Assembly (NCBI RefSeq): GCF_964355755.1
Contig: NC_092672.1
Coordinates: 19,419,237-19,483,236, forward strand
Source of the DNA: Antedon mediterranea
Taxonomy: Eukaryota; Animalia; Echinodermata
Direction: 5' to 3'
Length of the DNA stretch: 64,000 nt
How positions within the stretch are numbered: position 1 is the first letter of the stretch; every line of letters starts with the position of its first letter. A program made the translations under genes and the position numbers. Shown here in pieces: positions 1 to 36,136 of the stretch. The notes under the pieces were generated by a model, which had not been told where the DNA came from, searched no databases, and worked only from the letters and a program-made list of their open reading frames with translations.

Positions 1-103
1 TGACGTAGTATAAACAAATACAGTATTCTCTACCAAGAAAGCATTTTTTCTTGTCATTTTTGACATTCGATATTTAATTTTATAATCAACATTTCTTTTA
101 TAG

Positions 104-3100
104 TTTCAATCCAAATCATGACATAACTGACGCTATAGCAACAACAACGGTGTGCACTCAAGATGATGTCGATGAAACAACATTGAAAGAAGAACTACCA
201 GACACATGTAAGTATTAAGATGCGTGAAATAATGGTTCATAGATGTTAAAAAAATTGTTTGTAGTACATATAATTCCAAGTATACTGTCAAAACCAACCA
301 ACATTTATTGACACAAGTATGCAAATATTTTTTTTGTGACAAACCCATATTTTTCTGGCTTCAGTAAACTCATTATTTATAAAATATAATAGAGAGCTTT
401 CGCTATCTCGGATCGGGAACGAGAACCAGCTCCTGTATCTCGGGCTACGAGCATTAGTTAATTAAAATTTCACATAAACTAATGACGTCATACACAAAAA
501 ACCCTTACTTTCTCGGCGGCTCGTTCCCGATCGAGATAGCGAAAGCTCTCTAATAACTAATTTTACAAGATTTAAAAAAATACATTAACCTTCATATATA
601 TGTCACAAATACAGAAAAGGGTAAGCAGGCCAGTGTATTGCATAATCAGTGATTATTCTATTATTTATGCTGTAATGGTAAACAAAAGGAAAATGTTAAT
701 AACCATAGATATAAAACAAGTAAAAACTACAAAAACTTTGATGAAACTAAATTTTAAACTAAATCTAAACTGCTTTTCTGTACACACATTTACAATTTAT
801 AGCTAAGGAAAAAATTACAAGAGTAGAAAAATACGAGAGTGCAGAAGGAGGCCAAAATAAGTTTGTAGACAAATCTATATATAAATTTACGTAAGGGCAA
901 AATTCGGTAAATCGCGCCTTACTTCTAGAATGTTTACTCGATGGTATATACAGTTGGTTCGTACTTTCGGTACTGATTTTAACCACCTGATGTAACCCTG
1001 TTTACTAATTAAATTAAGTTAGATAATTAGTTATTGACGATTAAAACGAATTTAGGTTCAAAGATTTGCCCCAAATAGGGGTGTTTTCCGATCGTGGTAT
1101 ACACTGTCTAATGGATGTCCATCTTGAAAAATACCCGCCACAAAAATGCGAGGAGGCTTCGCATTTTCCTATCTCCTCCTACGATAATTGTTTTTAATAG
1201 CTGAAAACCGGTTGAACAGCTAGAGTACACCATCATGATGTTGAAGACAGGCCGATTTTCTTTAAAAAATACTATTTTGATAGATTTAATATACGATTAT
1301 ACAAATGTATTGATTTGCGATGAATGGAACATCCCAATCTCTCAGTCTGCCAAAGTTTGGTTTAACACAAGTAGGTAAATTTATGAGCCCTTGGTTTAAC
1401 ACATACGGTAGGTAAATATATGGGCCCTTTGAGAATAAACTTGCAAAACTTTGACAATACTGTAAATACCTATTATAGATTAGATTAGATGTAATATAAA
1501 AATATATACAAATAAACTTTATTACTGACATTGTGGACAGGCTCTACAGTTAGATATATAAACACATTATTATATACAAATAAACTTTATACTGACTGTT
1601 CCTTCTCAACGTTTGTATTAATTAATAATTACCAATAATATAAACGTTGTAGTAGTGTATCGTGACATGTACTTTAATATTTCAATCGATTATGACAGTG
1701 ACAGTTTAACAAAGTATTAAATCGCAAATGTTTTACTGTATTTAGAGGTATATTATTTATAGAATATAGGCCTATACAACATGAAAAAAATATTTCGTTA
1801 CTGAGTGGATAAAGAATATATTGAAAAAATGTTCCTCTTTGTACCTATCCGCTTTCCCATCCCTCAACCCTAATGTTACATACAAAACACAAATTGGGTT
1901 TCTTTAAATGAGTCCAAATAAAAAATTTGGACTCATTTTGTGATAAGTTTCTCCTTCGGAAGTAATTCCCAGGGTGCTAATTTTAGTTGACTACATAAAT
2001 CATCGTGTCTATTTATTCGTTTCTGTAAACGACAATGTATTATAGTCCTGCGGTACGTACATTTGAAATCGCCAGTTATGTTACGCTGAAATTACTGTAT
2101 ATTCGAGAACCATCTGTGGGCACGACCTGATGGTACGCGAGCAAAGCGAGTGCTTCAAAGTAAATTTACGTAAGGGCAAAATTCGGTAAATCGCGCGTTA
2201 TTTCTAGAATGTTTTCTCAATGGTATATAAAGTTGGTTCGTACTTTTGGTACTGATTTTAACCACCTGATGTAACCCTGTTTACTAATTAAATTGAGTTC
2301 GATAATTAGTTATTGACGATTAAAACGAATTTAGGTTCAACGATTTGCTTCAAATAGGGGTGTTTTTTTTAATGGATGTCCGTCTTGAAAAATACCCGCA
2401 GACAATAATGCGAGGATGCTTCGCATTTTCCTATCTCCTCCTACAATAATTGTTTTTAATGTCTGAAAACCGGTGGAACAGCTCGAGTACAGCATCATAA
2501 TGTTGAAGACAGGCCGATTTTCTTTAAAAAATACTATTTTGATAGATTTAATATATATACGTTTATACAAATGTATTGATTTGCGATGAATGGAACATTC
2601 CAATCTCTGTTCCACCAGCGTCTATTCCCTCAGGCGTCGTAAAGGCAAGTACTGTATACTCATAACAGAAATTCGATCCATTTTTTTTTCAATCTGTGCT
2701 GCAGAGGTTGGATATAATTTTTTTTTAACGGATATTATGAGCTAGCGTTTTCACTCGCCGTATATTATGTACACATCTTTATTATTGCAGTTAAACCACC
2801 CACATCATCACCCTTCCCTCACTGGCATGAGTAGCGTTGTAAAACCAGTAGAGGATAGGCCTACGGTACATCACATGCCCTAAACGCAGAACAACTTTGG
2901 TGGGTAGGGTAGGAACCAACTTAAGTATGAATTGGCTCTAAGAAACAATTGAAAACCATTAGGCCTACTAATTAAGTTGAGTTAGATAATTAAATATTTA
3001 TTGACGATTAAATCGAATTTATGATTTTCCCCGAATAGAGGTGGTTTTCACAAATTGTTTTACATTATATAAACATATACACGTTGTAGTGATGTATCGT

Positions 3101-6100
3101 TACATGTACTGTACTATTTCAATCGACTATGACGGTGATAGTTTCAACAAAGTATTAAATCGCAATGTTTTACTGTGTGTAGTGGTATATTATTTGTAAA
3201 ACATGAAAACAATTAATATTTCGTTACTAAATGGATAAAGAATATATTTAAAAAGTGTTCCTCTTTGCACCCATCCTCTCCCCATCCCTCAACCCTAATG
3301 TTACATACAAAACACAAATTAAGTTTGTTTAAATTTGACTTAAACAATTGGTCTCATTTTGTGACAAGTTTCTCTTTCGGAAGTAATTCCCAGGGTGCTA
3401 ATTTTAGTTGAGTACATAAATCACAGTGTCTATTTTATTCGTTCCTGTAACCGACATGTATTATTGTCCTGCGGTACGTACATTTGAAATCGCCAGTTTT
3501 TTAACGCTGAAATTATTATGTATTCGAGAACCATCTGTGGGCACGACCTAGATGGTACGCGAGCGAAGCGAGCGTACCATCTAGTTTAAATAAATAAAAA
3601 TAAATTAATAAAATAAAACTGGATGACAATCATAGAACATAACATAGATAAGGCGCTTGAAAACTTTGAAAATTAGTTCATACAAGTGGCTAATATTCAA
3701 ATCAATCCACTGTGATTAAAAAGTAATTTTTTTTCTCTTTTATTGCTTTAAAAACCCCATGTTAAATCCTGTGTTGTTTTATGTATGATTCTTGTTTAAT
3801 ATTTATTTATTTAATCTGATTATGTAGTTGTATTGTCTTGTTTTATGGATGTTATTCATATAATTTGTTTTACATACAATTTCTTGATTACTACTTTAAT
3901 TCAAACAAATTTGAAATAAATTGATAACTTGCTTCTTTTTACCTAAATTATTTATTTATAACACAGAACTGGATTTATTCTGTAATATCATGGATATATT
4001 CATTATTCAAATGTGTGTGATGTATTTTTTGTTTTGAAAGCTTTGTACTATATTGCATTTGTTGGTTTGTTGTTAGGGAGCCGCACGTCCTTCAGGCGAC
4101 AGCGGGTTTCCTGCTTTTGCGACTCCTGAGCTGGCATGGCAAATGAATCAATTAAATGTGTGTTTCTTCCTTTTTAACATTTCAATAAATAATTAACATA
4201 TTCATAGTGTACAAGCACAACAACAATAATATACAAAAACAAATTACACTTTTTTTAAAGCTTCTGAAATGTATGAGAAAGCAATTGCTAGAGAAGTGGT
4301 GAAACAAGTGAAAGGAAAACAAAATGCAACAGCATCTACAAAACAGGCTTCTGGCAATTATGAAAATGCTCCCATGAAGCATGTGAAAGAAGACAGAATA
4401 GAAGAACAGTCAAAAGAAAATCCAGCACAATCAACTATAACAGAAGAAAGCAAAATGGACGAGGGTAATAAAAAATGATAATAGGAATTTCAAGTGCAGG
4501 GCGTATTATTATTACATTTCACACCATTTCACTGTCTGCTCTACCAAAACTAAGCACTGGATTTTACATGGGCTGACTTGTGGCCTGGGCTATTCGATTT
4601 ATTTTTATTACTTTTTTTCATTTATTCGATATTTGATTTATTGTCTCTTTTTCTTTATATGTTTACTTAGTTAACTATATTATTTTAGTTTTAAAAGGAT
4701 CTTATACGTGACAAGAATAATTTATTCTTCTAGTATAAATCCTTAATATGATTCTAGCTGCTTTATTGTCGATCATGTAAACTTTTTCTGTATTCATGTC
4801 ATAAATAAAAATAACCGATAAAATAAAAAGATGGAAGAGGTGGTTAAATTGAATAGAAGTTTACTTTAAAACAGTTAGTGTCTTCGAATGTTTGATCCAT
4901 AATTCAAAACAAATATACTTTGCCTCTTTCAATTTTTTGTTTTTTAAAACTATGGGCCTCTGCGTCTCGAAATAACTAGACCTACTATTTTCTGCTCATG
5001 TTTTAACCAGAAACTATATTTGTTATTATTCTCAAACAAACTCAATGAAAGAGGAACATCTTTAGAGGCATGTGCCAAATTCTCCTCTTAATAATTGACA
5101 AGGTTTTCTTTCAAGATATATGGCAATTGAAAAGTCACTATGACGAGTCTTCTTGTCAATCAGGAAACGAAAAGCCAAGTAGAATCATTAGAAAAGCAAA
5201 CTCAGGACCTGAAATCATCAGAAACGTTGATATTCTGTAGATCCTTCGTTATTTTCACTTTCATTTTTAAAAATTAAATTGTCTGACAATGTACTTTTCT
5301 ACAATAATTATTAATTTTAATTACCATTTATAAAATAATCAGAATCCTATAAAAAATTATCCTAAAAAAAGTCCTATAGAAATTACATACAGAAACATGA
5401 TATTGATATTTTATTTGTCAACTAATACAATATTTTACAATTTTTAATTTAGTTAAATTACAAACAACCAAAAATATAGAACAAGAAACATTTCAGAAAG
5501 ACGGAAGTGATGACGAGACAAAGATTCCTTCAAAAAGAGAAGAAGAATTAATAGAGATTGAGTTTCAGAAACAAGGAAGTAATGACAATGTGACTAGCGA
5601 CAAGTTTGTGATGAATATCTGGGATTTCGGAGGACAACCAATTTATCATGTGATGCAGCGGGTAAAGTAGTTACATTTCATTACATGAAGCCCTTTTCTC
5701 ACAGACATGGAAGCAAAATGCAGGGAATATATATATATTGAATATTTTACCCGATGCCTGCATTACCCACTCCGACAGAATGTCAGACCAGCATGGTATT
5801 AGTTTATATATATTCCCAACATATATTTCTGTGAGAAAAGGCCTAACAATTTAGTTCTGCCTGCACAGGTCTTCCTCCTCTAATATAAGACTAACAAAGT
5901 TAGGAAAGGCCAACACTAATATAGTAACAAAACAAACTTTAAATGTTATTCATAAGAATTCTAGTACTATGGTAAAATAGCTATGTTTAGACATGATATT
6001 TTAAATCTAAAAATTAAAACACTATGAAACAAAAACCCTATACAATTCTAAATTTAAATGTTATTGATAATCAAGCATTTTGATATATTTACCATTCATT

Positions 6101-9100
6101 GAATGTCACTGTTTTATTGATCTCATAGATCTTCATGGTATCTTTTGCTGTTGTATGCATAGTATTCAACCTTTGTGATGATCTTGATGCCCCAGCTAAA
6201 GTTTTGGATCCAACAACTGTAAGCTCACTTTTATTAGTTTTTAAACACTATTTTCAATTCCTATATTGTGATTACTTTATAGTGAAAAATGTATACCTCT
6301 GCTCTGAACACATCTTAAAGTTTTAAGACTTATCAATTAGCTTCTCACATCTTATCCATAGACAATTTAACACAAAACTACATTAATAAAGAAACATTCT
6401 TTTCCTGCATTACTCAATAAATGAATAACAATAGATTGAACAATTACATTTTTTTCAATTGTTGTATACAGTATTATACATGATCAAAGAAATTAAAATT
6501 GAGTGTTCTACAAACATTTTTTGTTATCATATGTACTTATAAAATTTAGGGTGAAAAGTATGACCACAGAATGACAAATCTGGAGTTCATTCTTTCTTGG
6601 ATTCGTTCCATATACACAAACAGTAGACCTGATGCAAAGATAAATGGTCAGCCTTGTCCTCCTGTATTATTGATAGGTACACATTTAAATGGTCTAAATA
6701 ATCAAAAGGTGAGTTGAAAGACTGTAGAGAAATGACTCTTTTGTAATAATCATTTTTTGATGGAATGGAAGATGGTGCCATGTTGTTGGATAATAATAGC
6801 TTTAAACAGTGATTAAGTGTCTCTTTTTTTCAGGTTAAAGAAATAAAATCTAAAATTTGGGAAGCCCTAAAAGACAAACCATATGAAACTATGGTGTGTT
6901 CAACTATTTTTACCATTGAAAACAGTGTACCATTTAAACAAAGCAATGCTTCTGCCATCATGAAACAAATACTGGATTTATCAAAGAAAATGATCCGCAC
7001 TTTGCCAATAAAATGGTTGCAAGTCCAGCAGGAAATCCAAATCTTGAAAAAGAAGCACATCTATTTACCAACTTTTGAGGTTAGGTGCAAGAATTAATAG
7101 AAAATAGCGTTCAATGTAAACAATTAATGAATTACCATATTAAAAATGTGGCAATTTCTTTTATAAAGAAAAATTCGCAAAAATAAGGTTTACAGTATTT
7201 GTTCTATTGTTCTATTAGTCAGATCTCAATTTTCAGTATACCACCATGTTATTTTCAGTTTACATTGTAATTGGTGTAAAATCCTAGTTAATACGGGTCT
7301 GAATAAAACAATTACTTGTAGTGAAGCTTTCAGTCAACTACCATTTTCACTAATAGATGTACTTTATATATAAAGTTAAATCTCTTTATAGTAGGTATTT
7401 ATTGTACTGTTACATTGTCATATTATTTGAAAATTTATGAAAGTATATTAATAAACTTTTCATTATAATTGTTTTACGTATGTTCATATCTATTTTTGAA
7501 CAGATCCAAGATGAAGTACTTAAAAAAATCTGTAAAGTAACAGACGGTCACAAAGAGTTGCTTGAGTATTTACATGACATTGGCGTGATCCTCTACTATC
7601 CAGATGACAAGGATCTAAGAGATATAATAGTTGTAGATTTGATGCGACTAGTTGACATGTTTAAAACAATCATCACTGTAATAGACCATGACGATATGGT
7701 TAGTAATTAACAAAAATGATGTTTTGCATACTGTGCAGCAACATAATATTACTGGCTTCTAAATTTAATTAAAAATAACTTTTGATAGAAAATAACTTCA
7801 CTAAACTTACAGGTACCCAATCATATGAACTCAAAGATCAATACTTTTTTTCAACTATAGGCCTACCAATGTTACTCTGAATTAATAAATTAAAATTTGA
7901 TTTTAATTGTATTCTATTTTTGTAAAATAATAGGTACCAGCTATGAGACCAGCTTGGAGGATGCTGGACCAAGGCATTTTAAAAGGTGGATTGCTAAAAC
8001 ATCTGTGGGAGAAGTTCTGTGATTCTGATGAGATATTATCATTCTTTGCGTCTCTCATGCAAAAGTTTGGATTAGTGTGTGAACAAATAAATTCAAAGGT
8101 ATTGATACTAATTTCATTAATATTTCAATTTTCTAGCCTATATATAGCCTACTGATCTACTTATTAAATTATTTTTTGTTTACACAGAATAATGAAAAAA
8201 TTTTCTACGTTCTGTCACGTTTGAAACCACATGCCTCACCACCACCTGGATTTGAAAAAAAGCGTGCAGTTTCTCTATTTCATGATTTTGGTAGCTATCT
8301 TCCAGATGATCTTTTCCAACGTGCTGCAACAAAGTTTATTGAGAAATTTCAAATGGAAGATAAAGAACCTGTTCTATCCTATGAGCATGTAGAATTGAAC
8401 ATTGATGCTGATCACCTAGTCATTCTATATGTTACTACCATTAAACAATGCCGTATGTTACAGGTAAATTTTACAATTAGTACCCTATTTTTAATGCAAT
8501 AATAAATTTACCCAAATTTACAATAAAATTACTTCGCAAACTAAAAATATTTTGCAGGAAATATGAATTTTGTGATTTAGTGTTGTGTAAATGCTGACAA
8601 TTTTGTGTAAAATTGCTACTATAATATGATGTTTAAAAAAAAAAATACATAAATACCAGATGTACTTTTGAAAGAAACATTTGTTGCGCAACGTAATCCT
8701 ACAGGAGCCAGTTTGGTTTTGAATTAAAAAAAAAATTGATGCTTCAGCTCATCCGATCATTGATGAAACACACTGTAGATTACGGAGGTTTGCCCATAAA
8801 AAAACCCATGCTGATGTCATTCTTTTGTTTGCATTAAATTTACCACTTGATCAGTCCAGAGAGACCATGTGACTTAATTGGTCCACACGAGTTCCACTGT
8901 GGGTATTTGCGTCCAACCATCAAATAGCCAGATTCCAAAAAAGCTCTGCCAATCACAGGAAAGCTCAGCTTTGATCGATGAAATCACACTACAAAACCAC
9001 CATTTTGTGGTGTGATTTCATCGATCAAAGCTGAGCTTTCCTGTGATTGGCAGAGCTTTTTTGGAATCTGGCTACCCACCCCTGAAAATTGTAATAAATA

Positions 9101-10595
9101 TTTTCAAAGGTAACTTTTAGGAATTGTTTTTGCATTTTAAAATTGTATCATGTTTTATACTATTGTATCAAGGGTCCCAAAGAAGATAGTATTTTTATTG
9201 TGAATGACTAAAAATAAATAAATTGTTTATTTTTTTAAATATTTCAGACAACAATAGTAAGAACAAAGAGCTTCAATGATAGTCCTTTAGAACAGCAGCT
9301 TACAGAAGATGAAATCAAGCCACTACCTGAAGCCTGTAAGAAGGTAGGCTAGTAGATATGAAAGTGACTAAACAACATCATATATATATACTTTATTTAC
9401 AAAGTTGGTATAGGTATTTTGATTGATTTTTTATATAGATTTTGTTCACTAAAGAAAAATATAGTACTATACTTAAAAATTTATTTTGATCATAATCAGT
9501 TTCCATTCTGAATATTGCATAAATGATTTTATTTCACGATGTTCTGGATTTGATTATTTCGCTTCAGCTGATACTCGGGACTGTTGATTCTACATGCAAT
9601 ACAATTTTTAAATTAATTTTAATATTCTATATATTATATACTATTAGGTACTTTGTTTCCTCCAAAAGGAATTGAAAGTGTTCAGTCAGAGTGGTGCACG
9701 GGGTCTTAAAGTAAGAATGTGCATCCCTTGTGAATGTAGTCCAAACTTTCAAAATACACAAGTTCGTAAAGTGAGGATGTGCATTCCTTGTGCATCTAGT
9801 CCAAACACCAATGCTCATATGCATGTGATTAGCAAGTTTGACAAAGATTATTTACCTTGTGATGACAGGAAAATGGATGTGAGACCTTACCGTAAATTGT
9901 TTGGTGATGAACTAACAAAAGGTAAACATATTTGTTGATTTTGTATTTATAAAATTATATTGGTGGGGTTTCAATTCCGAATAAAAGTTTTTCTACTCAT
10001 GAACGTTTTCATGTATTTTGTTTGTCACAGTTCTTTTAAATAGAATGTTTAATACACTTGTTGCTTCAAGATTTTTAATTATTTAAACAGGAAATAAATT
10101 TGACTTTACTTTGGCAACTATACAAATAAAATAAATTAACAACAGCAAAACAACAAAAATTAAGTGATTAAAATAGATAAAATACACATAGTTGTGTTGG
10201 TAGTCTATAAGTGCTAGCTTAAACCAACATAGGCCTTTTCCACTTCGATGGGGAGAACATAACTTGAAAAGTAGAACAAAATGTAAAAATTGAATTGAAT
10301 GCAGCAATCTTGTTAAGGATGTAGATGTATCAAAAGTCCATGATTTAAAAATGTAATGACAGTTTTTTATTGATTATGACTCATGGACACTATGAATACA
10401 AATGAGGAAAATAAATTTGAAAAACTCCCCAAATTGCTTGTATATATTTCAGTTTCGCTATTAAGTTTTTCTTGTTATCAACATTTTCTGTTTTGTACAC
10501 TGGACCAGAAAGATGAATGGTCAACAAATAAATAAATTAGAGTATTACTATATTTTGTAATTTTAGATGCGCCATCTACATCCTCAAATATTTAG
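104..10595 (+). CDS. ROCO-family protein paralog A (Roc GTPase-COR), multi-exon, 5'-partial (P-loop exon must lie upstream of the window)
   Basis: GT-AG exons joining in frame: 104-207 (FNPNHDITDAI, switch I/G2-like), 4261-4464, 5453-5661 (MNIWDFGGQPIYHVMQR, G3), 6129-6218, 6550-6708 (PPVLLIGTHLN, G4), 6834-7079 (FTIENS, LPIKWL), 7504-7698 (LEYLHDIGVILYY, COR), 7934-8098, 8188-8463, 9248-9343, 9648-9921; candidate last exon 10567-10595 (DAPSTSSNI-stop). The 3' end is uncertain: 9921 could instead splice to 14184. Confidence 0.88.
391..551. mobile_element. Small non-autonomous DNA transposon (MITE, Harbinger/ISL2EU-like)
   Basis: About 33-bp terminal inverted repeats AGAGAGCTTTCGCTATCTCG...CGAGATAGCGAAAGCTCTCT, with AAT on both flanks. 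Confidence 0.75.
874..3584 (+). mobile_element. Non-autonomous Helitron, head-to-tail dimer (units start at about 874 and 2161)
   Basis: 5' TC after A; 3' hairpin GATGGTACGC-gagcgaagcga-GCGTACCATC ending in CTAG then T; two similar units of about 1.3-1.4 kb. Confidence 0.8.
5689..5844. mobile_element. MITE (Harbinger-like)
   Basis: Inverted termini CCTTTTCTCACAGA / TCTGTGAGAAAAGG in an intron of paralog A. Confidence 0.6.
8925..9074. repeat. Near-perfect 150-bp foldback/MITE hairpin
   Basis: TAGCCAGATTCCAAAAAAGCTCTGCCAATCACAGG... is mirrored by ...CCTGTGATTGGCAGAGCTTTTTTGGAATCTGGCTA; a decayed half copy lies at about 11491-11583. Confidence 0.85.
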
Positions 10596-10852
10596 GAGTG
10601 GAGCTGTGGCTTGGTGGTTATGATGCTTGGCTACCAATCTAAGGGTCCTGGGTTCAAGTCCTGTCATATGTCAGGGTTTTTTTCTCATGACAATTTACAA
10701 CTCCACTCCCAAAGACTTAATAATAAGTCTTTGTTTATGTAGAGCATCTTGTGTATATGTTTGTCTTGTGAAATTATTAAATAGTTTATCCATCCTGTAA
10801 TTGGCGGGTTAATCGCTGTTGGATGAGTATGAAATAAAATAAAAATAAAAAT
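10596..10852 (+). mobile_element. tRNA-derived SINE
   Basis: A box TGGCTTGGTGG, B box GGTTCAAGTCC, A-rich (TAAAA)n tail at about 10832-10852. Confidence 0.7.
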
Positions 10853-11739: not shown

Positions 11740-12110
11740 TCATAGGTCATAGTTTTGCTTGTTTAACACGTTTAATATCCACACCAGTTAGCTGAAGGGG
11801 GTTGAGATTGTGTACGTTTGCAACTGATAAGCGTTTTCTTTTCATTAACGTTCACTGTTTATTTATGGAAGACCGGTTACAGTACATATGTCTTCATATA
11901 CAGACTTAATTGAACTTTTGCATTTGCTAGATAACTGTTCAGATACTGTAGTGTCGTCCATATATTTAACAATGGATTCACCCTTAAGTCATTGATAAAG
12001 ATGATAAAGAGAACAGCTCTAACCCATTTCCCCTGGGGACACCACCCTTCGGACACACCTTTCACGAAACAAATTAGTTTGTGAATCAATTAATCTGTCC
12101 ACTCAATACA
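11740..12110 (-). mobile_element. Decayed LINE reverse-transcriptase fragment
   Basis: Minus-strand remnants of PQG, LFIIFINDL and YMDDTTVSE in broken frames. Confidence 0.55.
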
Positions 12111-12392
12111 GGCAGTATATTTCTATGCAAATACCATTGATCATTATAACACAAACAGTAACCCACAGTGAATTAAAAGAAGGATGAAAAGCATGTTAAG
12201 AGCTCAGTGAAGTAGTAGGGTGATAGATAAATAAAAAAAAAGAAGAAAACCAAATCACGGCAAACTACACAACACGGTTTGACATCAATAAAAGGAATGA
12301 AACGAGAAATAACATATAATTATCATGCATACAATGTGGTAAACATGAAAAGAGATATACCAATAATGCGTGGTAGTACAGTAGTACCAAGA

Positions 12393-13630
12393 TACCATCC
12401 AACCACACATTTTAATTAATAAGTTGTTCGGCATGAATATCCCCAATTTACTAATTTCGTTCGTTTTTAACTTCCTCGTTGGACGTCTCCAGTTTGTTAG
12501 GCTAAATCAAAATGTCAGATCGGACATTATTCGGACAAATACGGGAGCACCACAAGGTACTGTACTTGCACCGTTTTTGTTCACATTGTATACGTCAGAT
12601 TTCCAACCTAGATTCCCGGACTGTCCAGTAATTAAATTTGCAGATGATTCTGCTATGATAGGTTTAATAAAAGAGGATGACGATACAAATTTCAAATCTG
12701 AAATAGTTAGGTTTACGAAATACTGTGATGAAAATTTCCTGGAACTTAATGTAGCAAAAACCAAAGAAATGCGAATAGATTTCCGCCGTAAAAAAAGAAG
12801 GGAAATTGAGCCTGTCCAGATTAAAGGACATGAGGTAGAAATCGTTAAAACATATAAGTATCTTGGGGTAACGTATGACAATAATTTATCATGGGGAGAG
12901 CATGTAGATCAACTAATTAAAAAATTAAATACTAGACTGTACTGTTTGAGGAAAATGAACGTTTTTAGGGTAAGGGAAGAGATACTTACTATGTTTTATT
13001 CATCTGTTATTTTTTTCAATCTGGGATTATTGCCTATTAGGCTGGGGTGGGAACATAAACAAAGGAGATAAGGGCCGCATATGTAAAGTGTTAGAAAGGG
13101 CATTAAGAGTGATTGGCTCGTCGGCGCTGACAGCGGACTCAGTCTACGATTGTCACTACGGAGAACGATTGAAAAATGGTTTACAGGCGGTCATGGAGGA
13201 GGAAAGCCACCCCCTTCATTCGGATCTTCTTCGCTGCCACATTGGTAGAAGTGGTAGACTGAGGCCGGTGTTGGCGCGGACGGGTCGATACTCAAATTCG
13301 TTTCTCCCAGCTGGGATTAAAAAATTTAACGATGACTTTAAGAGGTAACTACAATAATTTTGATAACAATAATAAATAATATAATATAATAATTAATAAT
13401 GAAATATAAGACACTTTTTAAACCGTTTTGTAATGATCTGTATTTTTAACTTAAATATTTTTGAGCTGTAATTTTATGATGTACTTTTTTAATCATTGTG
13501 TATTTTTTATATTGTTATTCTACATTTTATACTTTATTTTTATACGATATTTTTATACGATATTTTTAAGTGAGCAAATGCAATTTCCAGTTTATTTGGA
13601 CAATAAAAGTTATCTGTATCTGTATCTGTA
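12393..13630 (+). mobile_element. 5'-truncated non-LTR retrotransposon (Rex1/Babar-like LINE), C-terminal half of RT
   Basis: ORFs 12424-13071 and 13088-13348 carry GAPQGTVLAPFLFTLYTSD, KFADD, YKYLGV, HPLH and RTGRYSNSFLP; frameshift at a poly-T run near 13010; AT-rich 3' UTR with (TATCTG)n tail. Confidence 0.9.
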
Positions 13631-13784
13631 GATTAAATAGCATTTCACAAATAATACTTTTGGTGATTTTTGCACTGAGGTTAAAGATATTGGTCAGAGG
13701 TCGGATTCGATTGACTTGGGGATTGACTTTAGGAATAGTTACTATGTTTCAGCTTTCCATTCGCTATTATTTATATTACTATAG

Positions 13785-14183: not shown

Positions 14184-14738
14184 AATTGAATGATGACGAT
14201 TACAATGAACTGCTCACTGATGTATCTACTTGGTGGAAGAAACATGGAAACATTCACATGCTGAGAGTGTTACTTAGCGAGTTCACGTATCGTGATACAA
14301 CCATTACTTTGAAAAAAATAGAGAGTGAAAATACACCATATCATCTGCTTGGTCTACTTGAGGGTCCTGGACTTCTCAAACCGGCAGACATTGGTATCCT
14401 CGTTGAAGCTACTAATATATGCGGACTTCAGGGAGTTCAAGACGTGATTGCAAAAATTGTAAAATTACCAAACTTCAAATTCATTCCATTCAAACATTTT
14501 TCTGAGCATCGAAGAAAATTGATAGCATTTGGTCAGCACTTGAATACAGAGAACATGGTAACTATTGGCCGCCTTAAAGGCATTAAGGAGGTCAACGAAG
14601 ACACAGATTCGTTTTGGTTAATCTTGAAATTGGAAATGAAAGGCACACTTGCAGAAGGAAAGGAGATGGAAAAATTCATTAAACTGCTTACAGAAAGAAA
14701 GATGATGAAAGAAGTGGAGGCATTGACAACACTAAAAG
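14184..14738 (+). CDS. Exon encoding tandem death-effector-domain-like (DED-DED) module, phase 1-1
   Basis: CAG acceptor and GTAAAA donor; two six-helix-like units YNELLTDVS...LLGLLEGPGLLKPADIGILVE and FSEHRRKLIAFGQHL...LILKLEMKGTL resembling the caspase-8/cFLIP prodomain pattern (recognised by eye). Confidence 0.7.
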
Positions 14739-14899: not shown

Positions 14900-14944
14900 A
14901 TGAACAATCAAGAAGTGAAGCTGGACCATCAAGTAATACAGAAA
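14900..14944 (+). CDS. 45-nt phase 1-1 microexon (DEQSRSEAGPSSNTE)
   Basis: Polypyrimidine tract plus AG, GTATGT donor, in frame with the DED exon. Confidence 0.65.
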
Positions 14945-15462: not shown

Positions 15463-15507
15463 GTAAACGATCAAGAAGTGAAGCTGGACCATAAAGCAAT
15501 GCAGAAA
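15463..15507 (+). CDS. Duplicate of the 45-nt microexon with an in-frame TAA at 15492-15494 (terminal exon or pseudoexon)
   Basis: Shares exon, donor and about 55 bp of upstream intron with 14900-14944; TCA codon changed to TAA; AATAAA follows at about 15522. Confidence 0.6.
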
Positions 15508-16078: not shown

Positions 16079-16252
16079 AATTATCAGCCAGCAAAAACAA
16101 CAGTATCTGGATGGTGTGATGAACATTCCCAAAGAATTCTAAACAAGATGAAAATGGTAATCAGCGAGCTCATCATCAAGAGTAGGAGACAAGATGAATG
16201 AATCCATTAAGAAACTTGATGAAAAGAAAATGATTAATGAAGTTATGCATTG
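16079..16252 (+). pseudogene. Degenerate, internally deleted copy of the DED exon
   Basis: Acceptor tag|aa tta versus cag|aa ttg; VSGWCDEH versus VSTWWKKH; IKKLDEKKMINEV versus IKLLTERKMMKEV. Confidence 0.55.
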
Positions 16253-16350
16253 ATGATTTTAGATAATTGATATTTCCATTCCCTCAATGACCCAAGTTAG
16301 ACAACACAAACCAACAGTGGTGTTGGTAGTCCATGAGTGCAGCATACCTG

Positions 16351-25130: not shown

Positions 25131-25943
25131 AATTTACTGAAAATAAAAGGTTTCTATTCAAAATAATTATACAAATTTAACTTTATTAAAACAGATCTCT
25201 ATGATTGATATAAAATCAAGTTTTAACTCTAGGATAGTTCTACAGTTGGCGTGTTTCTCAATCATTTTCTGGCATTTCATAAAAGTTTTCATAGTTTAGT
25301 TGAAAGGAAGAAAGGAACTTTAACTAGTTGAAAGAACACAATATCACCAACTATGCATGTCTCCTGTACCACAATACCAATTCTAAACAGTACTGTAATC
25401 AAACAGTATTAAACAAATATATGGTACAACAAGAGGAAAAAAGCTGAGTACAAGCGTGGAAGAAATATATATTTCCTCCATGGTACAAGAAAGCGTGTGC
25501 AAGGAATTTTGATTGGTGCTATTTCTAGTAGCCTACTAATAATTAAGAAAACTAGTCACTGACGTACATTTTAAAGTCCCAAACAAAGGCACTTGTTATA
25601 CATTTTACACAAAAGCCGATAAGTTTTTGAAAAACGTAAGAAAATTTGTAGAAAACTAAAAACCTCAATACCAAAAAAATTCACACACTGAAAAATGGCC
25701 ATTGTTTGGAAAAAACTCCCTGATTGATTAGTCAACCTAATTAAGTACCACTTAACAAAATACAAGTTCATTTTTATTGCACATTTGAGATGTGAGGAAG
25801 AATAAATAAAAATCTAAAACACACAATTAGTGCTATTTTCAAAACAACAATTCTGGGTGGCACAATTTTATTTTTCTAATACACCCTAAACTTGTACTAA
25901 AAAAATAATGTTCTATTTCAAACTTTATAGCCTATTAAATTAA

Positions 25944-29353: not shown

Positions 29354-32300
29354 AACCAGTCTCTGAAGAAAAACTTGAGAGACCAGAAATTCCTAAAGGG
29401 TTCAGGAACAAATTTGTAAGCAAACTTCGCTCTGCAAGAGAAGGTGGTGACTCTAAAATGGATAGCAACAAGTTTGTTATGAACATCTGGGACTTTGGTG
29501 GTCAACCAATTTACCATGTGATACAACGGGTACATTTTATTGGTGTATTTAATTTTTATTAATAGAGATTAGTTTGCCGTCAATATTTAATATACATGCC
29601 TCCATCTGAGGTTGTGAACATTTACTTTGTCTTTTGGCCTTGTTACAATATCAGCACTGAAATCAAAAAGCTTGCTCACTCACAAAGATAAAATACATTT
29701 GGAATATCAGAATTTCGGTATGCCAGCCAAAGGGTGTCCAGTTTTGAGAGACTTTAAGTAAAATAGTATTCATTGATGTCTACCATAATGTAATATTAGC
29801 CTAGATGGATAACAAAGAGGGAGAGAGAGAGAGGAAGAATGGAATAAAACATTCATTATATATTAAACCAATGATTAAGATTGTAAATGTTTCCAAGGTG
29901 AACATGCACTTTGTGAGGAAAATAAAAGTATCAAATAATCAGTTCGTTGTGCCAGTATCTGACACATGTGTATAAACAGTTTGTAATATTGACTATTATG
30001 ATTATGTTTACTAGATATTCATGGTATCTTATGCTGTTGTATGTGTGGTATTCAACCTGAATGAAGGTCTTAATGCCCCAGCTAAAGTTCGTGATCCAAC
30101 AACTGTAAGTAGATTTTACAAATTTCAAATGTTTATGTAATTGTACATAAATAAAATGTTTCCTTCAAGTTATTCTTTACCTTAACACAAACTGTGCCAA
30201 TAGCAGATGCCTGATATATGATTGTTGTTATTTCCACTTCTATGATAGTGTTGTTAATAGCAGATGCCTGATATATGATTGTTGTTATTTCCACTTCCAT
30301 GAAAGTGTTGTTAATAGCAGATGCCTGATATATGATTGTTGTTAATTCCACTTCCATGATAGTGTTGTTAATAGCAGATGCCTGATATATGATTGTTGTT
30401 AATTCCACTTCCATGATAGTGTTGTTAATAGCAGATGCCTGATATAATATGATTGTTGTTAATTCCACTTCCATGATAGTGTTGTTAATAGCAGATGCCT
30501 GATATATGATTGTTGTTAATTCCACTTCCATGATAGTGTTGTTAATAGCAGATGCCTGATATATTTATTTTAGGTAAAGGAAATAGAAAATATACTTTGG
30601 AAAGCTCTGGAAGGAAAACCATTTGAAGACATGGTGTATCAAGGAGAGCTCTTTACTATTGAAAACAGTGTCCCATTTGAAAAGAGCGGTGCTTCTAAAA
30701 TCATTCTCCAAATACAAAAATTAGTCCAGATGATGATTCTTACTTTTCCAATTAAATGGCTGCAAGTACTGCTGGATATACAACAGTTACGAAAAGCCAA
30801 ACTATATCTACCAACTTCTGAGGTTAGAATAAAAATATCTTTAACAAATCGATTGATGAATGTGTCTTTTAATGTTTAACATCCATTACATTTGAAGCAT
30901 TAAACCCTGTTTTCTGAGTATTGCGTTGCATTGAATGGTGTTAATTAAAGTGAAAAAAAAGCAAACTCTTTTCATTACATTTGAAATTGTGTGGGATACA
31001 AGTTTGTTATTGATAGTAATATAACAGTAATCCCTGCTTTTCTGTCTGTGTTAATTGACTGTTTATGTTGAATCTTCAACAAATGTTTATCAAACAGGAA
31101 CGGTGCAATTTTAGTAGAGTACCAAGTACCAAAACAAAAGGAACATTTTTTGTCCTCTAATAATTATTGAAGTAAGTGGTGAACCTTGAGTTTACTGTTG
31201 GTTGGGAAAATTTCAGAATTCAAATCTATCCTTGCATGATAAAGTATTATGTCCTATATAAACAACCTTTCAACAACGAAATAAATGATAACATCAACAG
31301 AAAACCAGTTTGTAATTAATCAACATTTTTTTTTTCATTATGATATTTATTTACCATTTTAGATTAATGACTTACTTGCTCGGTGTAAGATAACTGACAG
31401 AAAACTGTTTCTTGAGTACTTGCACGACATCGGCGAAATTCTGTTCTACCCAGATGACAAGATCTTCAAAGAAAAAATTGTTATAGATTTGATGGGAGTA
31501 GTTGACAAGTTTAAAACAATCATCACAGTTATAGATCCCAGCATTCAGGTTATCAAACTTCACTTCTTTGAGTGGTGTCAATCATTGGTGAATATCAGAC
31601 GTAAACATTGTGGTAATTTTTTTTTAGTGTGATGGATTTAGCTGTAAAAATGTAATATCTGCCACACAGAGAATGAAATTATACCTTATTAATTCTATTA
31701 TATTCTAATACTAAAATATGTATTTTTAAACATATTACTGTACCACTCCCATTAAGAGAAGACCCAACAAAGTGTCTCCTTAATAGAGGTTAGCTATGGT
31801 GTTAATCTGCCTCTCATTTATTTCACAAGTAAGTTTTAATAAGGTTTAAGGGAAGACCCAACAAAGTGTCCCCTTAATAGAGGTTAGCTATGGTGTTAAT
31901 CTGCCTCTCATTCATTTCACAAGTAAGTTTTAATAAGGTTTAAGGGAAGACCCACCAAAGTGTCCCCTTAATAGAGGTTAGCCATAGTGTTATCTGCCTC
32001 TCATTCATTTCCCAAGTAAGTTTTAATAAGGTTTAAGGGAAGACCCAACAAAGTGTCCCCTTAATAGAGGTTAGTCGTGGTATTAATCTGCCTCTCATTC
32101 ATTTCACAAGTAAGCTTCAATAAGCTTTTCCCAAAGGAGAGATTCTACTGAATCTACTTTTGTGCTTTTATGCTTTTTAGCCATCTCTGAAACAGCTTTG
32201 GAGAAATTTAAATCGGGGCAAACTAGATGAAAGACTGTTGCAGCATATTTGGAAGGATGAGTCAGATGAGATGATTATCTTCTTTGTGTCTCTCATGCAA

Positions 32301-35300
32301 ACCTTTGGGTTAATGTGTGAAAAAAGGAGTCAAGAGGTATTTACATTTTATTTAACATTTTAGTTTAATTATTTGTTCATATATTCTATCTAGGACTCGT
32401 GTTCCATTTTTGTTTCTACAGAATGTTGGACGAATGTTCTATGTTCTTTCACGCCTAAAGCCCCAACGTGATGATACAAAGGCTGCTGAATATGAAGAGA
32501 AGCATGCTATTTCTCTCTTTCATGACTTTGATGGCTACCTTCCAGATGATCTCTTCCAACGTGTTGCAACTAAATTTATTGAGGAATTTCAAATGGAAGA
32601 TGTTGAGCCTACATTGTCTTATGAGCATGTAGAACTGAATGTTGATGGCCATCATCTTGTGCTTCTAAATGTTGCTACTATTAACAACCGTCGTTTGTTC
32701 CAGGTAAAATAATAATAAATAGTTTTATTCAATTCTACTCAAAAGTCTATTATTTCGACCAAAAAACAATGAGGTAAAACAACAATAATGACAAATAATG
32801 GATGACGGCAGAATCCAATGAAGATGAAAATCTTGATAGACAAGTTAATTATATGGACTTTTAGATTAGAGTAAAAATGTTTAAAGGATTGATATGTTTT
32901 TTTTGTAATTGCAGACAACAATTGTCAGAACGACAATCATGAAAACAGAATCAGGAAGCAGCTCTCCTGAAGATGATGATCCACAACCTAGCATCTGTAA
33001 GAAGGTAAGCCAGTATCAAACATTCTACACTTTATTTAGAATAACCTCCAACTTGTTGCTTTTACATCTTTCACAAGCATAATTCTATTTACACAATTAG
33101 CCATTAGAAATACTGATATATGCCTCTTAATTTGTTCCTTTTTAATTGTTATTGCATTACTGTTACAACTTTATTTATTTTTCAGGTGCTTAGTTTCCTT
33201 CAAAAAGAATTAGACTTTTTGAGTGAGAAGAATGCACATGGTGTTAAAGTAAAGATGTACATCCCTTGTGTGTGTGCTTCAAAAGGTGAACCTACTCATA
33301 TGCATGTTGTACGCAAATTTGACAAAGATGTGTTGCCATGTGGAAGCAGAGGAATGGAAGTGAAACGTTACCATAATCTGTTTGGAGACAATGTCCTATC
33401 AAAGGGTAAATTATTATTATTATTATGAAGCCTAGGTAGGATGTTGACGAAAAATGAATAATATAATACAATCTTGCAATAATGCAATGTTATTTTTCTC
33501 TAGGGTAAAACTACAAAATCACTTTAACGGATTTGTATAAATTTAACACAAAAAATGAACACATACCAATATTTGTTCCTTTCCAAAATGTCAGATATAT
33601 GTGTATATATCAAGTAACTTATAGTATTATGCCCTAAATAATGCTGGTTTCAACTGATAGATGTATTTTTGGGCAAAGTTCATTTCTCTATTTGTTACTA
33701 TGCCTTGAGACCCTTGTTGTAAATGTATGTATCATTTGTGTCTGTACACATTAGAAGCTAGATAAAATTAAAAGATTTACAGTAGTACGCATTTTTTATG
33801 ATTTTCAATTCATAGTGAAAGCCTAAATATCTGTTATTATTTAACCTTCTTTTTTCCAGAGGAGTCCATTGAAGACAAGTATGTGAATAACATTGGTAAA
33901 TATGACTTTTACAGATACAGACGTATTTCGTATCATAATATATTGAATACACTTCTACTAGTAAGCAACTACTACATAGGCATTGGATAGAATATTAAAA
34001 ATCTATATGCAATTCTTATAGGATTTTTATATTTTTACATCTGTTATTGAAATAGAATTAATATCACTTTCATAGCATACACTGTTAGTACCTCTAGTTG
34101 ATGAGGAATATGATACCACTCAATGTAAATGGCATAATTGTTTCAAAATATTACTTCTTCTTTGTACATATGACAATATAGTATTGTTTACACATTAGTA
34201 CAGCAATTAGTACATTCTGGAAGACTTGATTGAACCTTATTTTTGTATTATTATATGTAGCCTTAATATTGCTTATTATGTTTTAAAAACATTGTTTGTT
34301 TGAACTTTTGAGACAGATCCATGTAAAAATAATAAAAAGAAAATTTAAAAATGTTTTTTTTTTAAATCATAGACTATGTGGATGACCTTACTATTGAAAG
34401 TGTGTCTACAGAGATGGATCTTTCCTGTAGACGATTTGGTGTTCGTTTGGGGCTTACATGGTCTACAGTGAATACTATATTTGATAATGAAAAGCAGACA
34501 GATAAAGCTACAGCAAACATGCTGAAACGTTGGAGAAGCAGCATTGGTAGTGACTTTAATCAGCAACAAGTATTGTGCACCGCACTAAGGCATCATGATC
34601 GTAATGATCTTGCTGATCTGCTGTTTCAGAAATACATTGACGATGAAATACCCAAGGTTATCAAACCTTCAGGTATATAGCATTATATTGTGATTCCTGC
34701 CATTAAATAGTATAAAAATAATGAATGTTTATAAGTACAATGGCACAAATAATTTATGAGGTGAAAATATATAAAATTTTCATCTTTCACCTAAGAAAAT
34801 ATTTTTACTATTTTTACCTTTAGTTTTAATGAAAGGAAAGGCCTAAATCATTCAAATGGTTGATCCAACGTGGTCATTCAACTACAACCTAGCCTCTTGT
34901 AACTTGTGGTTGCTCACTCACCGTGTAACAAAAACAAACATGCAAAAACTAAATTTCAGTGCTCTTGTGCACATATATCAACATTGCACTCTCAATGACG
35001 TCATTAAAAGAGCAATAGCACATTTTAATAAAAAATAACTCACAATTCTCCAAATGGATTAAGAATCTTCTTAGGTGTGTTATAAAGGTTGTGTCGGTTT
35101 ATTTAATTTATTCAGATATTGTTTGTATTAATATTTTTATTTAAATTTGTTAATTGACACAAAATTATGTTTATTTTCTATGGACAAATGATTCCAAAAT
35201 AAAAGATTGAATGGAATTGTGAGTTGAATTTTAATTGAAACAGAACTCATTATCTTAACGCCTTTATTATTTCACAGCTCGTTTTGATGATCAAGATCTA

Positions 35301-36136
35301 CTGTTCATCTGTGACAATTTAGGTCAACATTGGAGAAGATTAGCAGTGCGCCTTGGAATTAAATGGGATGTTATCAGTAATATCACAGGTAAAAACAGAC
35401 ATGATGAAGATGACATAATGGTAGTCCTGGTTAAGTGGAGAGGTAGACAAAGAGCAGCACATCAAATACCTACAATGATCAAGGCTTTAAAACAACAAGG
35501 ACGTGTTGATTTAGCTGATAGCCTGTGTACAAGACATGAATACAAAGATGACGTCAGTTCAGAAGTTCCAATGTTTACAGACCAATCAGGACAAGGTGGG
35601 TAACGCTTATTATTCTTAATATGTTATTGTAACTATATACCTGATTATATTTTTTTTATTTACTTTTTATAAGATTGTTGAGAGATGGACAAACATGATT
35701 AAATATTACATTTTGTTTTTCAAATGTTTTAACATTTGAAAAACAAAATGTAGCCTATAGGCATATTGGAGGATTTTTTTAATTCAAATATTAAAATTGT
35801 TGTTTTCATTATTAATAATTGTATATAACATACACGATCAAAATTGTTTTAATTAAATGTATTTTTACAGGATGCTTAACAGACTTGGACTTCCTGATAA
35901 TTTCTCTGAAAATGACAGAATGGAAGAGTTTTTGCAGGGGTCTTGGTATTGCTGATGTTGAACTATCACAAAATGAGAGAAAATATTTCATGCTTACTGT
36001 AGAAGCAACTATGGAATCACTGGTACAATGGCGATGTAAGCAAGGAAGAGATGTGAACCAACGAGAGGAAGTAATAAAAGCCTTAAGAGCAGTTGAGAGA
36101 ATGGATATTGTACAATTACTAGAAACAGTCTATTGA
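29354..36136 (+). CDS. ROCO-family paralog B: partial Roc - COR - three death domains; no G1, G2 or G4 exon found
   Basis: In-frame GT-AG exons 29354-29529 (MNIWDFGGQPIYHVIQR), 30015-30104, 30574-30822, 31363-31548 (LEYLHDIGEILFY), 32181-32336, 32422-32703, 32915-33004, 33186-33405, probable microexon 33860-33895, 34373-34672, 35278-35595, 35871-36136 (TGA); intron positions and phases match paralog A; AATAAA at about 36185 and 36238. Confidence 0.88.
30199..30563. repeat. 57-bp minisatellite, about 6.4 copies
   Basis: Unit AATAGCAGATGCCTGATATATGATTGTTGTTAATTCCACTTCCATGATAGTGTTGTT; ends about 10 bp before exon 30574. Confidence 0.95.
31758..32125. repeat. 94-bp tandem repeat, about 4 copies (probably MITE-derived)
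   Basis: GAAGACCCAACAAAGTGTCCCCTTAATAGAGGTTAG at about 31758, 31852, 31946 and 32039. Confidence 0.9.
34373..34672 (+). CDS. Death domain 1 exon of paralog B (phase 1-1)
   Basis: RRFGVRLGLTWSTV...NMLKRWR...LCTALRHHDRNDLAD death-domain pattern. Confidence 0.85.
35278..35595 (+). CDS. Death domain 2 exon of paralog B (phase 1-1)
   Basis: LGQHWRRLAVRLGIKWDVI...VLVKWR...MIKALKQQGRVDLAD. Confidence 0.88.
35871..36136 (+). CDS. Death domain 3, terminal exon of paralog B
   Basis: EWKSFCRGLGIADVEL...SLVQWR...VIKALRAVERMDIV followed by TGA. Confidence 0.88.

What the first reader, a model, noticed from the sequence alone, without database searches (positions are those of the whole stretch)
104..36136. 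Tandem Roc-COR (ROCO) cluster with exchangeable death-fold outputs: tandem DED after paralog A, triple death domain after paralog B
Seen: two Roc-COR paralogs with matching intron positions and phases. In both, the COR region ends at a phase-1 donor (9921, 33405) and is followed by self-contained phase-1 exons: a DED-DED-like exon (14184-14738) for A and three one-exon death domains for B. No kinase, LRR or WD40 exon was seen after COR. Established: Roc-COR is a nucleotide-regulated dimerisation module (LRRK2, DAPK1, MFHAS1); death domains and DEDs recruit FADD and caspase-8-type partners; symmetric exons shuffle easily. Inference: a lineage-expanded, NLR-like immune or cell-death switch family using a ROCO core with plug-in effectors. 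I do not know a characterised Roc-COR-DED-DED or Roc-COR-DD3 protein.
Basis: partly seen in the sequence, partly recalled or inferred. Interest (0 to 1): 0.85.

Follow-up and report, generated by a model that had tools for sequence, protein, structure and literature searches.

The report
Feather-star ROCO swapping death-signal plugs
A feather-star gene is predicted to join an LRRK2-type nucleotide switch to a caspase-8-like tandem death-effector module, with a decayed older module lying just downstream, so it likely swapped its output recently within a large family of probable immune or cell-death receptors, while the neighbouring copy lacks key exons of its switch.

Summary
Mostly confirmed, with corrections. 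Gene A's exons (104-15494) equal residues 303-1184 of a public crinoid (Antedon) model, DED2-Roc-COR-DED2. The 14184 exon is a true tandem DED (pLDDT 95.5; Z 16.9 to caspase-8 tDED). Eight intron positions match between A and B. B, however, lacks its G1, G2 and G4 exons, so it is a truncated copy, not a working Roc. New: A's C-terminal DED2 is a recent copy of its own N-terminal one (157 of 184 identical), and a broken exon at 16079-16253 matches the terminal DED2 of A's sister gene, which suggests a swap caught in progress. Across 38 cores the post-COR module changes at least five times. Related DED2 modules sit on crinoid NLRs, RIG-I, TIR adaptors, Rel and caspase-8, which supports an immune or death role by association only. 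No RNA evidence for the 9921-14184 junction was obtained. The design is in print: bacterial Roc-COR with variable effectors, Trichoplax death/CARD ROCOs, and sponge and coral COR+DED/Death rows (Kaur 2021 supplement). This scan noted ankyrin-ROCO relatives elsewhere in this genome. Verdict: new variant of a known kind; interest 0.55.

The parts
104..207 (+). Gene A exon with switch I (G2, TDAI); phase 2-1. The G1 exon, N-terminal DED2 and ankyrin-cap segment lie upstream, outside the window
4261..4464 (+). Gene A exon, low-complexity insert inside Roc; phase 1-1; predicted disordered (residues 362-452 pLDDT < 50)
5453..5661 (+). Gene A exon with G3 (WDFGGQ); phase 1-0
6129..6218 (+). Gene A Roc exon; phase 0-0
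6550..6708 (+). Gene A exon with G4 (IGTHLN, Asn at the usual Asp position); phase 0-0; the matching exon is absent from B
6834..9921 (+). Gene A end of Roc and COR, six exons: 6834-7079, 7504-7698, 7934-8098, 8188-8463, 9248-9343, 9648-9921; last donor phase 1
12385..13345 (+). Reverse-transcriptase (LINE-type) remnant inside the intron between COR and the DED exon
   Evidence: RVT_1 E 3.6e-13 for 12385-13068
14184..14738 (+). Tandem DED (DED2) exon, phase 1-1; 157 of 184 residues identical to A's own N-terminal DED2
14900..14944 (+). 45-bp phase 1-1 tail exon of A
15463..15494 (+). Last coding exon of model A (diverged copy of the previous tail exon, with stop); AATAAA at 15522
16079..16253 (+). 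Relic DED2 exon (frameshifts, large internal deletion); its two ends match the C-terminal DED2 of P0005/P0038, A's sister core
29354..30104 (+). Copy B, first surviving exons: 29354-29529 (G3; phase 1-0) and 30015-30104; no G1 or G2 exon upstream
30105..30573 (+). 469-bp intron where the G4 exon is missing; mostly a 57-bp tandem repeat (30199-30564, 6.4 copies)
30574..33405 (+). Copy B end of Roc and COR, six exons: 30574-30822, 31363-31548, 32181-32336, 32422-32703, 32915-33004, 33186-33405; last donor phase 1
33860..33895 (+). 36-bp phase 1-1 linker exon of B
34373..34672 (+). Death domain 1 of B, one exon, phase 1-1
35278..35595 (+). Death domain 2 of B, one exon, phase 1-1
35871..36136 (+). 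Death domain 3 of B, terminal exon with stop; AATAAA at 36185

Best explanation
Gene A is predicted to encode a kinase-less ROCO protein with a tandem death-effector module on each side of its Roc-COR core, likely an NLR-like intracellular receptor of a crinoid family that swaps such one-exon modules, and copy B lacks its G1, G2 and G4 exons and is likely a dead or adaptor-only fragment. Mechanism. SHOWN: Roc-COR sequence and predicted fold, tandem-DED predicted fold, symmetric phase-1 exons, at least five DD/DED2 changes on the core tree, related DED2 modules on crinoid NLR, RIG-I, TIR, Rel and caspase-8-like proteins. INFERRED: (1) ankyrin repeats upstream, as in relatives, sense a ligand; (2) nucleotide cycling at Roc changes the COR-mediated dimer, by analogy with bacterial Roco and LRRK2; (3) the dimer clusters four tandem DEDs (or DDs in B-type genes), which nucleate homotypic assembly with a DED-bearing caspase-8-like protease, adaptor or Rel protein; (4) A's ancestor ended COR-DD-DED2 like its sister P0005, then lost the DD exon, gained a copy of its own N-terminal DED2 exon, and the old terminal exon decayed at 16079-16253. 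I put about 0.85 on repeated module exchange, 0.8 on the 9921-14184 splice, 0.75 on B being unable to bind nucleotide, and 0.6 on the immune or death-signalling role.
For: A's exons equal P0001 residues 303-1184 exactly. Whole-model Foldseek: LRRK1 E 9e-16, LRRK2 1e-13, C. tepidum Roc-COR 1.7e-13. DED exon: pLDDT 95.5, pTM 0.90; Z 16.9, rmsd 2.7 over 167 residues to caspase-8 tDED, the nine best rows all tandem DEDs. Core tree of 38 rows: first module after COR is DED2 in 17, DD in 18, none in 3; the DED2 label needs 5 changes in all 200 bootstrap trees. A's C-terminal DED2 groups with two pre-Roc modules, SH-aLRT 96. The relic scores 147 against P0005/P0038, 92 against the next of 154 modules, at most 71 in 200 shuffles; P0005 is A's sister core, 100/99. 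Of 75 DED2-module carriers scanned (of 102 found), 15 have NACHT, 12 Roc or COR, 5 TIR, and one each RIG-I helicase, Rel and caspase; 20 of 20 looked up are crinoid. Ankyrin repeats precede Roc in P0010, P0048, P0051 and P0158, and A's residues 18-61 match the post-ankyrin segment of P0051 (score 166 of 232). No ankyrin-cap or G1 exon flanks the 14184 exon, so it is not the start of an intact next gene.
Against: No transcript evidence: the three runs laid cover introns and show no listed splice joint. Reading through the 9921 donor gives a stop five codons later and AATAAA at 9980, so a COR-ended form is possible. All architectures come from computed gene models, several plainly fragmentary, and mis-joins would inflate the count of swaps. 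The closest relatives of the 14184 exon are N-terminal modules, which also fits a stranded piece of a tandem duplicate. G4 has Asp in only 1 of 34 motif instances and Asn in A, so GTP specificity is doubtful. No RxDL motif in the exon (motif recalled; also absent from four crinoid DED carriers checked). The A model shows no ankyrin repeats itself. No functional data on any member were found in the searches run.
Confidence: 0.6

Rival explanations
1. The 14184 exon is a stranded piece of a tandem duplicate's 5' end and is not spliced to A. A ends just after COR, and the public model joins the two by error.
For: Its nearest relatives are pre-Roc modules. Read-through stop and AATAAA follow 9921. 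A 4.3-kb intron with a LINE remnant separates the two. 3 of 38 cores have no module after COR. No RNA joint was seen.
Against: 555 bp open, both splice sites intact and in phase after 27 residue changes from its sister, while the neighbouring relic has decayed. No ankyrin-cap exon before it and no G1 exon after it. It is followed by two tail exons, a stop and AATAAA. An independent public model makes the same join. 17 of 38 cores carry DED2 at this position.
Confidence: 0.17
2. The swapping is mostly neutral churn in a duplication-prone cluster. Phase-1 exons move easily, many copies are fragments, and the choice of module has little functional meaning.
For: B is truncated, a relic exon and several mobile-element pieces lie in the window, and many family models are partial.
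Against: G1 is intact in 23 of 27 and a G3-type motif in 36 of 39 family rows. The family persists in two crinoid species. What follows COR is a death fold in 35 of 38 rows rather than an arbitrary exon, though some rows were found through their DED2, which favours that count.
Confidence: 0.12
3. The proteins are signalling scaffolds for development, autotomy or regeneration, or membrane traffic, as with DAPK1 or LRRK2, and are not invader sensors.
For: Characterised ROCOs act in traffic, cytoskeleton and cell death (passages). The model of A shows no sensor repeats.
Against: Lineage expansion, fast turnover and module sharing with NLR, RIG-I, TIR and Rel proteins match immune families. Ankyrin repeats precede Roc in relatives.
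Confidence: 0.1
4. A and B form one locus with two alternative 3' halves. A's G4 exon (donor 6708, phase 0) would splice to B's 30574 acceptor (phase 0), which supplies exactly the exons that B lacks and gives Roc-COR-DD3, so the output would be switched by splicing.
For: The phases are compatible, and B lacks only exons that A has at or upstream of that donor. B's 12 exons keep an open frame and canonical sites.
Against: All internal introns are phase 0, so compatibility is expected by descent. The jump is about 24 kb across A's stop and AATAAA. The cores are only 60% identical. Public models treat A and B as separate. B is 97% identical to a sister copy, so recent truncation explains its open frame.
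Confidence: 0.06

Closest known systems
Metazoan AP-GTPase (Roc)-COR proteins with death folds listed in Kaur et al. 2021 (PMC8195603, Figure 4 source data, 10 rows seen)
   Same: Kinase-less Roc-COR flanked by death folds: sponge APGTPase+COR+DED+TRADDN+CASPASE; sponge DED+TRADDN+Ankyrin+APGTPase+COR+Death; coral TRADDN+Death+APGTPase+COR+Death+Death
   Different: Those rows carry a TRADD-N domain and at most one DED; no tandem DED on both sides of the core, no crinoid row, no exon-level account. The stored file is cut and one supplement was not searched.
Bacterial LRR-AP-GTPase-COR counter-invader proteins (PMC8195603, section 15 read)
   Same: Constant Roc-COR switch, repeat sensor in front, variable C-terminal effector (at least 24 domains), several paralogs per genome
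   Different: Sensor here is ankyrin in relatives, effectors are animal DD or DED2, and exchange is by symmetric exons
Trichoplax ROCO expansion (Civiero et al. 2014, PMC4104024, passages)
   Same: At least 17 ROCO genes with CARD and death domains around Roc-COR
   Different: TPR or LRR repeats; no DED named in the text (0 occurrences)
Brown-algal LRR-ROCO candidate receptors (PMC11378527, passages; PMC3341825, search listing only)
   Same: Expanded kinase-less ROCO family diversified by exon shuffling, proposed immune role
   Different: [quoted passage not shown]
Human DAPK1, MFHAS1, LRRK1/2 and C. tepidum Roco
   Same: Roc-COR fold; DAPK1 has ankyrin-Roc-COR-death order (recalled; a DAPK1 cluster scores 0.89)
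   Different: No kinase, LRR or WD40; an unstructured insert of about 90 residues inside Roc; G4 without Asp
Caspase-8 and c-FLIP tandem DED
   Same: Same two-domain fold and arrangement in the model, Z 16.9
   Different: 13-18% identity, no RxDL motif, fused to a GTPase core, not to a protease
Invertebrate NLRs with exchangeable DD, DED or CARD connectors (amphioxus, PMC2575513, passages); Aplysia and anemone TIR- or Death-ROCO genes (PMC9334734; PMC5094078)
   Same: Connector domains shuffled among receptors in a lineage-specific way
   Different: NACHT core in NLRs; TIR outputs and few genes in the mollusc and anemone cases

Membership tests
ROCO (gene A) | Roc domain followed directly by COR | tested here: met
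   Pfam Roc E 8.7e-12 and COR-A E 9.9e-13, both above cut-off; Foldseek to LRRK1, LRRK2 and C. tepidum Roc-COR over 740-800 columns
ROCO (gene A) | G1 P-loop, G2 Thr, G3 DxxG | tested here: met
   GLEGVGKTS at 285 (exon outside the window, from P0001), TDAI at 308-313, WDFGGQ at 461
ROCO (gene A) | G4 with guanine-selecting Asp (consensus recalled) | tested here: inconclusive
   A has GTHLN; Asp in 1 of 34 crinoid or unnamed motif instances (7 more rows gave no motif); some bacterial ROCOs also lack it
ROCO (gene A) | GTP binding, hydrolysis and COR-mediated dimer cycle | not testable with these tools
   Described for C. tepidum and LRRK2 (PMC4721548 passages); needs biochemistry
ROCO (copy B) | Complete Roc domain | tested here: not met
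   G1, G2 and G4 exons absent from the window; COR and G3 present
Tandem DED (caspase-8/FLIP type) | Two death-fold helical bundles in the tDED arrangement | tested here: met
   pLDDT 95.5; Z 16.9, rmsd 2.7, 167 aligned; single DEDs 8.9 or less
Tandem DED (caspase-8/FLIP type) | Pfam DED score or RxDL motif | tested here: not met
   No PF01335 hit for the exon, no RxDL; close relatives P0003 and P0004 do hit PF01335
Tandem DED (caspase-8/FLIP type) | Homotypic binding or filament formation with DED partners | not tested
   No complex job was run; needs pull-down
Death domain (B, three exons) | PF00531 above the curated cut-off | tested here: met
   37.3, 42.9 and 29.8 bits against 22.6
NLR | NACHT or NB-ARC core with LRRs | tested here: not met
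   None in P0001 or relatives; NLR-like is a functional analogy only
DAPK1 / LRRK kinases | Protein kinase domain | tested here: not met
   0 of 37 crinoid clusters

The most novel reading that the evidence does not exclude
Crinoids have rewired innate signalling onto one interchangeable tandem-DED plug shared by NLRs, RIG-I, TIR adaptors, Rel and caspase-8. ROCO GTPases are a third intracellular receptor class on that bus, and gene A is caught mid-swap: it replaced its output with a copy of its own N-terminal plug, so the same module brackets the switch and could both hold it shut and, on dimerisation, nucleate a caspase-8 filament.
Probability: 0.3. Interest if true: 0.78.

Novelty: new variant of a known kind. 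Interest (0 to 1): 0.55.

Why it matters
How the Roc-COR switch drives an output is an open question that is hard to study in LRRK2, where kinase and repeats complicate it. A kinase-less Roc-COR bracketed by caspase-8-type tandem DEDs offers a simple read-out: nucleotide state against DED assembly and caspase activation. The locus also records an effector swap at exon level (new module, decayed old module, sister gene with the older layout). Related modules on NLR, RIG-I, TIR, Rel and caspase-8 proteins give a testable wiring diagram for a little-studied echinoderm class. Interest is capped because the design principle is in print, similar Roc-Death clusters exist in molluscs and sponges, B is a fragment, and no expression or function is shown.

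Tried and rejected
No whole genome is held for this window, so there is no genome-wide paralog count and the DNA upstream of position 1 was not read. Sequencing runs: no RNA holder listed; X1-X3 laid on 1-19900 cover introns and show no splice joint among the listed rows, which says nothing on expression. No read-level view of B was obtained, so a missing G4 exon through assembly collapse at the 57-bp repeat is not excluded. Rejected: the 14184 exon as the N-terminus of B (no G1 or G2 exon between them; B's sisters have a DD before Roc, P0051 and P0033). Rejected: a DD relic between 9921 and 14184 (none at E 0.05; best window scores for the P0005 DD are B's own DDs). A sequence profile of the DED2 module finds no DED in PDB (4 weak unrelated rows), and Foldseek gave no match at E 0.001 (best 9e-3, all listed rows DED assemblies); only the wide structural search was clear. 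The AU test rejecting one clade for the cores of A, P0007 and P0017 (p 9e-150) used a group picked after seeing the tree, so it is not independent. In the module tree two rows labelled postCOR (P0105, P0128) have weak or no COR evidence. P0143, one of the 102 hits, is a bacterial surface protein and is treated as chance. The tail exons of A have no clear match in other proteins. No complex prediction was run. Paper searches: roc-cor with death effector domain, 0 papers; roco, tandem DED, caspase-8, lineage-specific expansion, 3 of 4 terms, 0 papers; searches listed no crinoid ROCO study among the rows shown. Subscription papers, including the Marin reviews cited in PMC4104024, were not seen. 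PMC11507063 and PMC11463336 were read as passages and concern LRRK-type kinases and one ROC-caspase.
Full report
Source and scope. The window is AT-rich animal DNA. A search with the 14184 exon returned four proteins, all named Antedon mediterranea, a feather star. The best, P0001 (1184 aa), matches the window letter for letter over its exons. No whole genome is held, so family statements rest on public protein models.

Observation, gene A. Fourteen exons from 104 to 15494 have canonical splice sites and give an open frame of 882 aa, identical to P0001 residues 303-1184. P0001 has Pfam Roc and COR-A above cut-off. Its predicted structure (mean pLDDT 72) matches LRRK1, LRRK2 and C. tepidum Roc-COR with E 9e-16 to 2e-13. 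G1, G2 and G3 are intact; G1 lies upstream of the window and is known only from the model. G4 reads GTHLN; the usual Asp (recalled consensus) occurs in 1 of 34 motif instances in the family, so guanine specificity is open. COR ends at a phase-1 donor at 9921, and the next modelled exon, 14184-14738, is phase 1-1.

The DED exon. Pfam does not call it. Folded with a 48-sequence alignment it gives pLDDT 95.5 and aligns to the caspase-8 tandem DED at Z 16.9, rmsd 2.7 over 167 residues; the nine best rows are all tandem DEDs and single death folds fall to 8.9 or less. The language-model search agrees (0.93 and 0.91 to DED clusters; recognition score 2264, just under the tool's 2300 mark).

P0001 carries a second DED2 before Roc, 157 of 184 residues identical to the C-terminal one. 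Its residues 18-61 match the segment that follows the ankyrin repeats in P0051, where a death domain fills the same slot before Roc. So there are two plug-in slots. A-type is DED2-Roc-COR-DED2; B-type, pieced from the overlap of P0051 and P0033, is ankyrin-DD-Roc-COR-DD3 (inference from two models). Other models put a caspase (P0049) or TAZ+KIX (P0007) before Roc.

Observation, copy B. Twelve exons from 29354 to 36136 are open over 788 aa. Eight intron positions and phases match A, and the three death domains are one exon each. But B lacks what corresponds to residues 1-191 and 277-329 of its sister P0033, that is G1, G2 and G4, and six-frame searches find these exons nowhere in the window except A's own G2 and G4. 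The G4 gap is a 469-bp intron filled by a 57-bp repeat. The public model of B is only COR-B plus DD3 (P0034). B therefore cannot be a working Roc as assembled. Whether this is a real loss or a collapse was not checked with reads.

Is the output exchangeable? Two searches gave 24 of 29 and 32 of 39 hits from two crinoid species; none of the 37 crinoid clusters has a kinase, LRR or WD40 hit. I built a tree of 38 COR cores, leaving out 6 with short COR-B and 3 near-duplicates. The first module after COR is DED2 in 17, DD in 18 (1 to 12 copies) and none in 3. The DED2 label needs 5 changes in every one of 200 bootstrap trees; shuffles average 12.7, so the label is clustered but has no single origin. 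Inside the 13-row clade that holds A and B, DED2 stands directly after COR three times (A, P0007, P0017), and on a tree of 88 modules these three DED2s do not group together. Caveats: these are computed models, and some rows were found through their DED2.

A swap in progress. A's sister core is P0005 (100/99), which ends COR-DD-DED2. A has no DD exon. Its C-terminal DED2 groups with its own and P0002's pre-Roc modules (SH-aLRT 96), not with P0005's. At 16079-16253 lies a broken exon with a splice acceptor, frameshifts and a large internal deletion. Its two ends score 147 against the terminal DED2 of P0005/P0038, 92 against the next of 154 modules and at most 71 in 200 shuffles. The simplest reading (inference) is that the old terminal module decayed after a copy of the N-terminal exon took its place. 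The rival, that the 14184 exon is an unspliced stray, remains at about 0.17 because no RNA was available and a read-through stop with AATAAA follows 9921.

What the module connects to. A search of all 50%-cluster representatives found 102 relatives of the DED2. Of 75 scanned (21 short ones, 1 very long one and 5 seen earlier were not in these scans), 15 have NACHT, 12 Roc or COR, 5 TIR, 2 NHL, and one each RIG-I helicase, Rel, caspase, kinase, TPR-ATPase, ENTH, ubiquitin and HEPN. All 20 looked up are crinoid, among them proteins named DDX58 and caspase-8-like. This is guilt by association, but it names candidate partners.

Mechanism. Most likely (0.6) an upstream ankyrin sensor, a Roc-COR dimer cycle like that described for C. 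tepidum and LRRK2 (PMC4721548 passages), and clustering of DED2 or DD modules that recruit a caspase-8-like protease, adaptor or Rel. The folds, exon symmetry, repeated exchange and module sharing are shown here; sensing, nucleotide use, dimerisation and partner binding are inferred.

Comparison with what is known. Kaur et al. 2021 describe bacterial LRR-Roc-COR proteins with at least 24 C-terminal effectors (section 15). Their supplement lists sponge APGTPase+COR+DED+TRADDN+CASPASE and coral Death+APGTPase+COR+Death+Death (that file is cut and one supplement was not searched, so more may be listed). Civiero et al. 2014 give at least 17 Trichoplax ROCOs with CARD and death domains (passages). 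Brown-algal ROCOs shuffle LRR exons (passages). Atlas clusters with Roc+COR+Death or CARD are commonest in molluscs and sponges. I found no paper holding both roc-cor and death effector domain and none for roco with tandem DED. Earlier notes of this scan describe ankyrin-cassette ROCO genes, one with DED, elsewhere in this genome; they are unchecked AI notes, used as leads only.

Verdict. Real feature, observation partly confirmed, interpretation partly supported. A is a ROCO member with a tandem DED on both sides and a likely recent output swap; B is a truncated copy. New variant of a known kind; interest 0.55.

Noticed in passing
window 62030-62128 (+): A single 99-bp phase 0-0 ankyrin-repeat exon (Pfam Ank E 1.8e-8), closest to P0051 among stored proteins; possibly the start of the next ankyrin-ROCO gene. 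No second such exon was found in the window.
   Followed up: partly
P0118, P0125, P0071, P0133, P0059 (outside the window): Crinoid RIG-I-like helicase, Rel protein, TIR adaptors, caspase-8-like protein and NLRs all carry a relative of the DED2 module; in the RIG-I-like protein it sits where CARDs are usual (recalled)..
   Followed up: partly
P0049 (outside the window): Antedon model with a caspase domain (Pfam E 1e-49) directly before Roc; catalytic residues not checked.
   Followed up: no
P0016 (outside the window): Anneissia model with 12 death domains after COR.
   Followed up: no
family-wide, G4 motif: Asp at the G4 position in only 1 of 34 motif instances; Gly 13, Asn 10, Glu 7. May mean relaxed nucleotide specificity.
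   Followed up: partly
window 12385-13345 (+): LINE-type reverse-transcriptase remnant in the intron before the DED exon.
   Followed up: no
window 23290-25163 (+): Broken DDE_Tnp_4 transposase (24768-25163, E 3.8e-16) with a short palindrome at 23290-23341, between A and B.
   Followed up: no
window 38112-40061: 78-bp tandem repeat, 25 copies at 97% match, 2 kb after B.
   Followed up: no
window 9704-9806 (+): A short internal duplication in A's last COR exon repeats a KVRMCIPC motif; the stretch is low-confidence in the model.
   Followed up: no
window 14826-14953 and 15389-15516: A 128-bp block containing A's tail exon is duplicated (85% identity); the second copy carries the stop codon.
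   Followed up: partly
window 21758-22111 (-): ORF piece resembling a GIY-YIG-type mobile-element tail (resemblance recalled; no Pfam hit).
   Followed up: no
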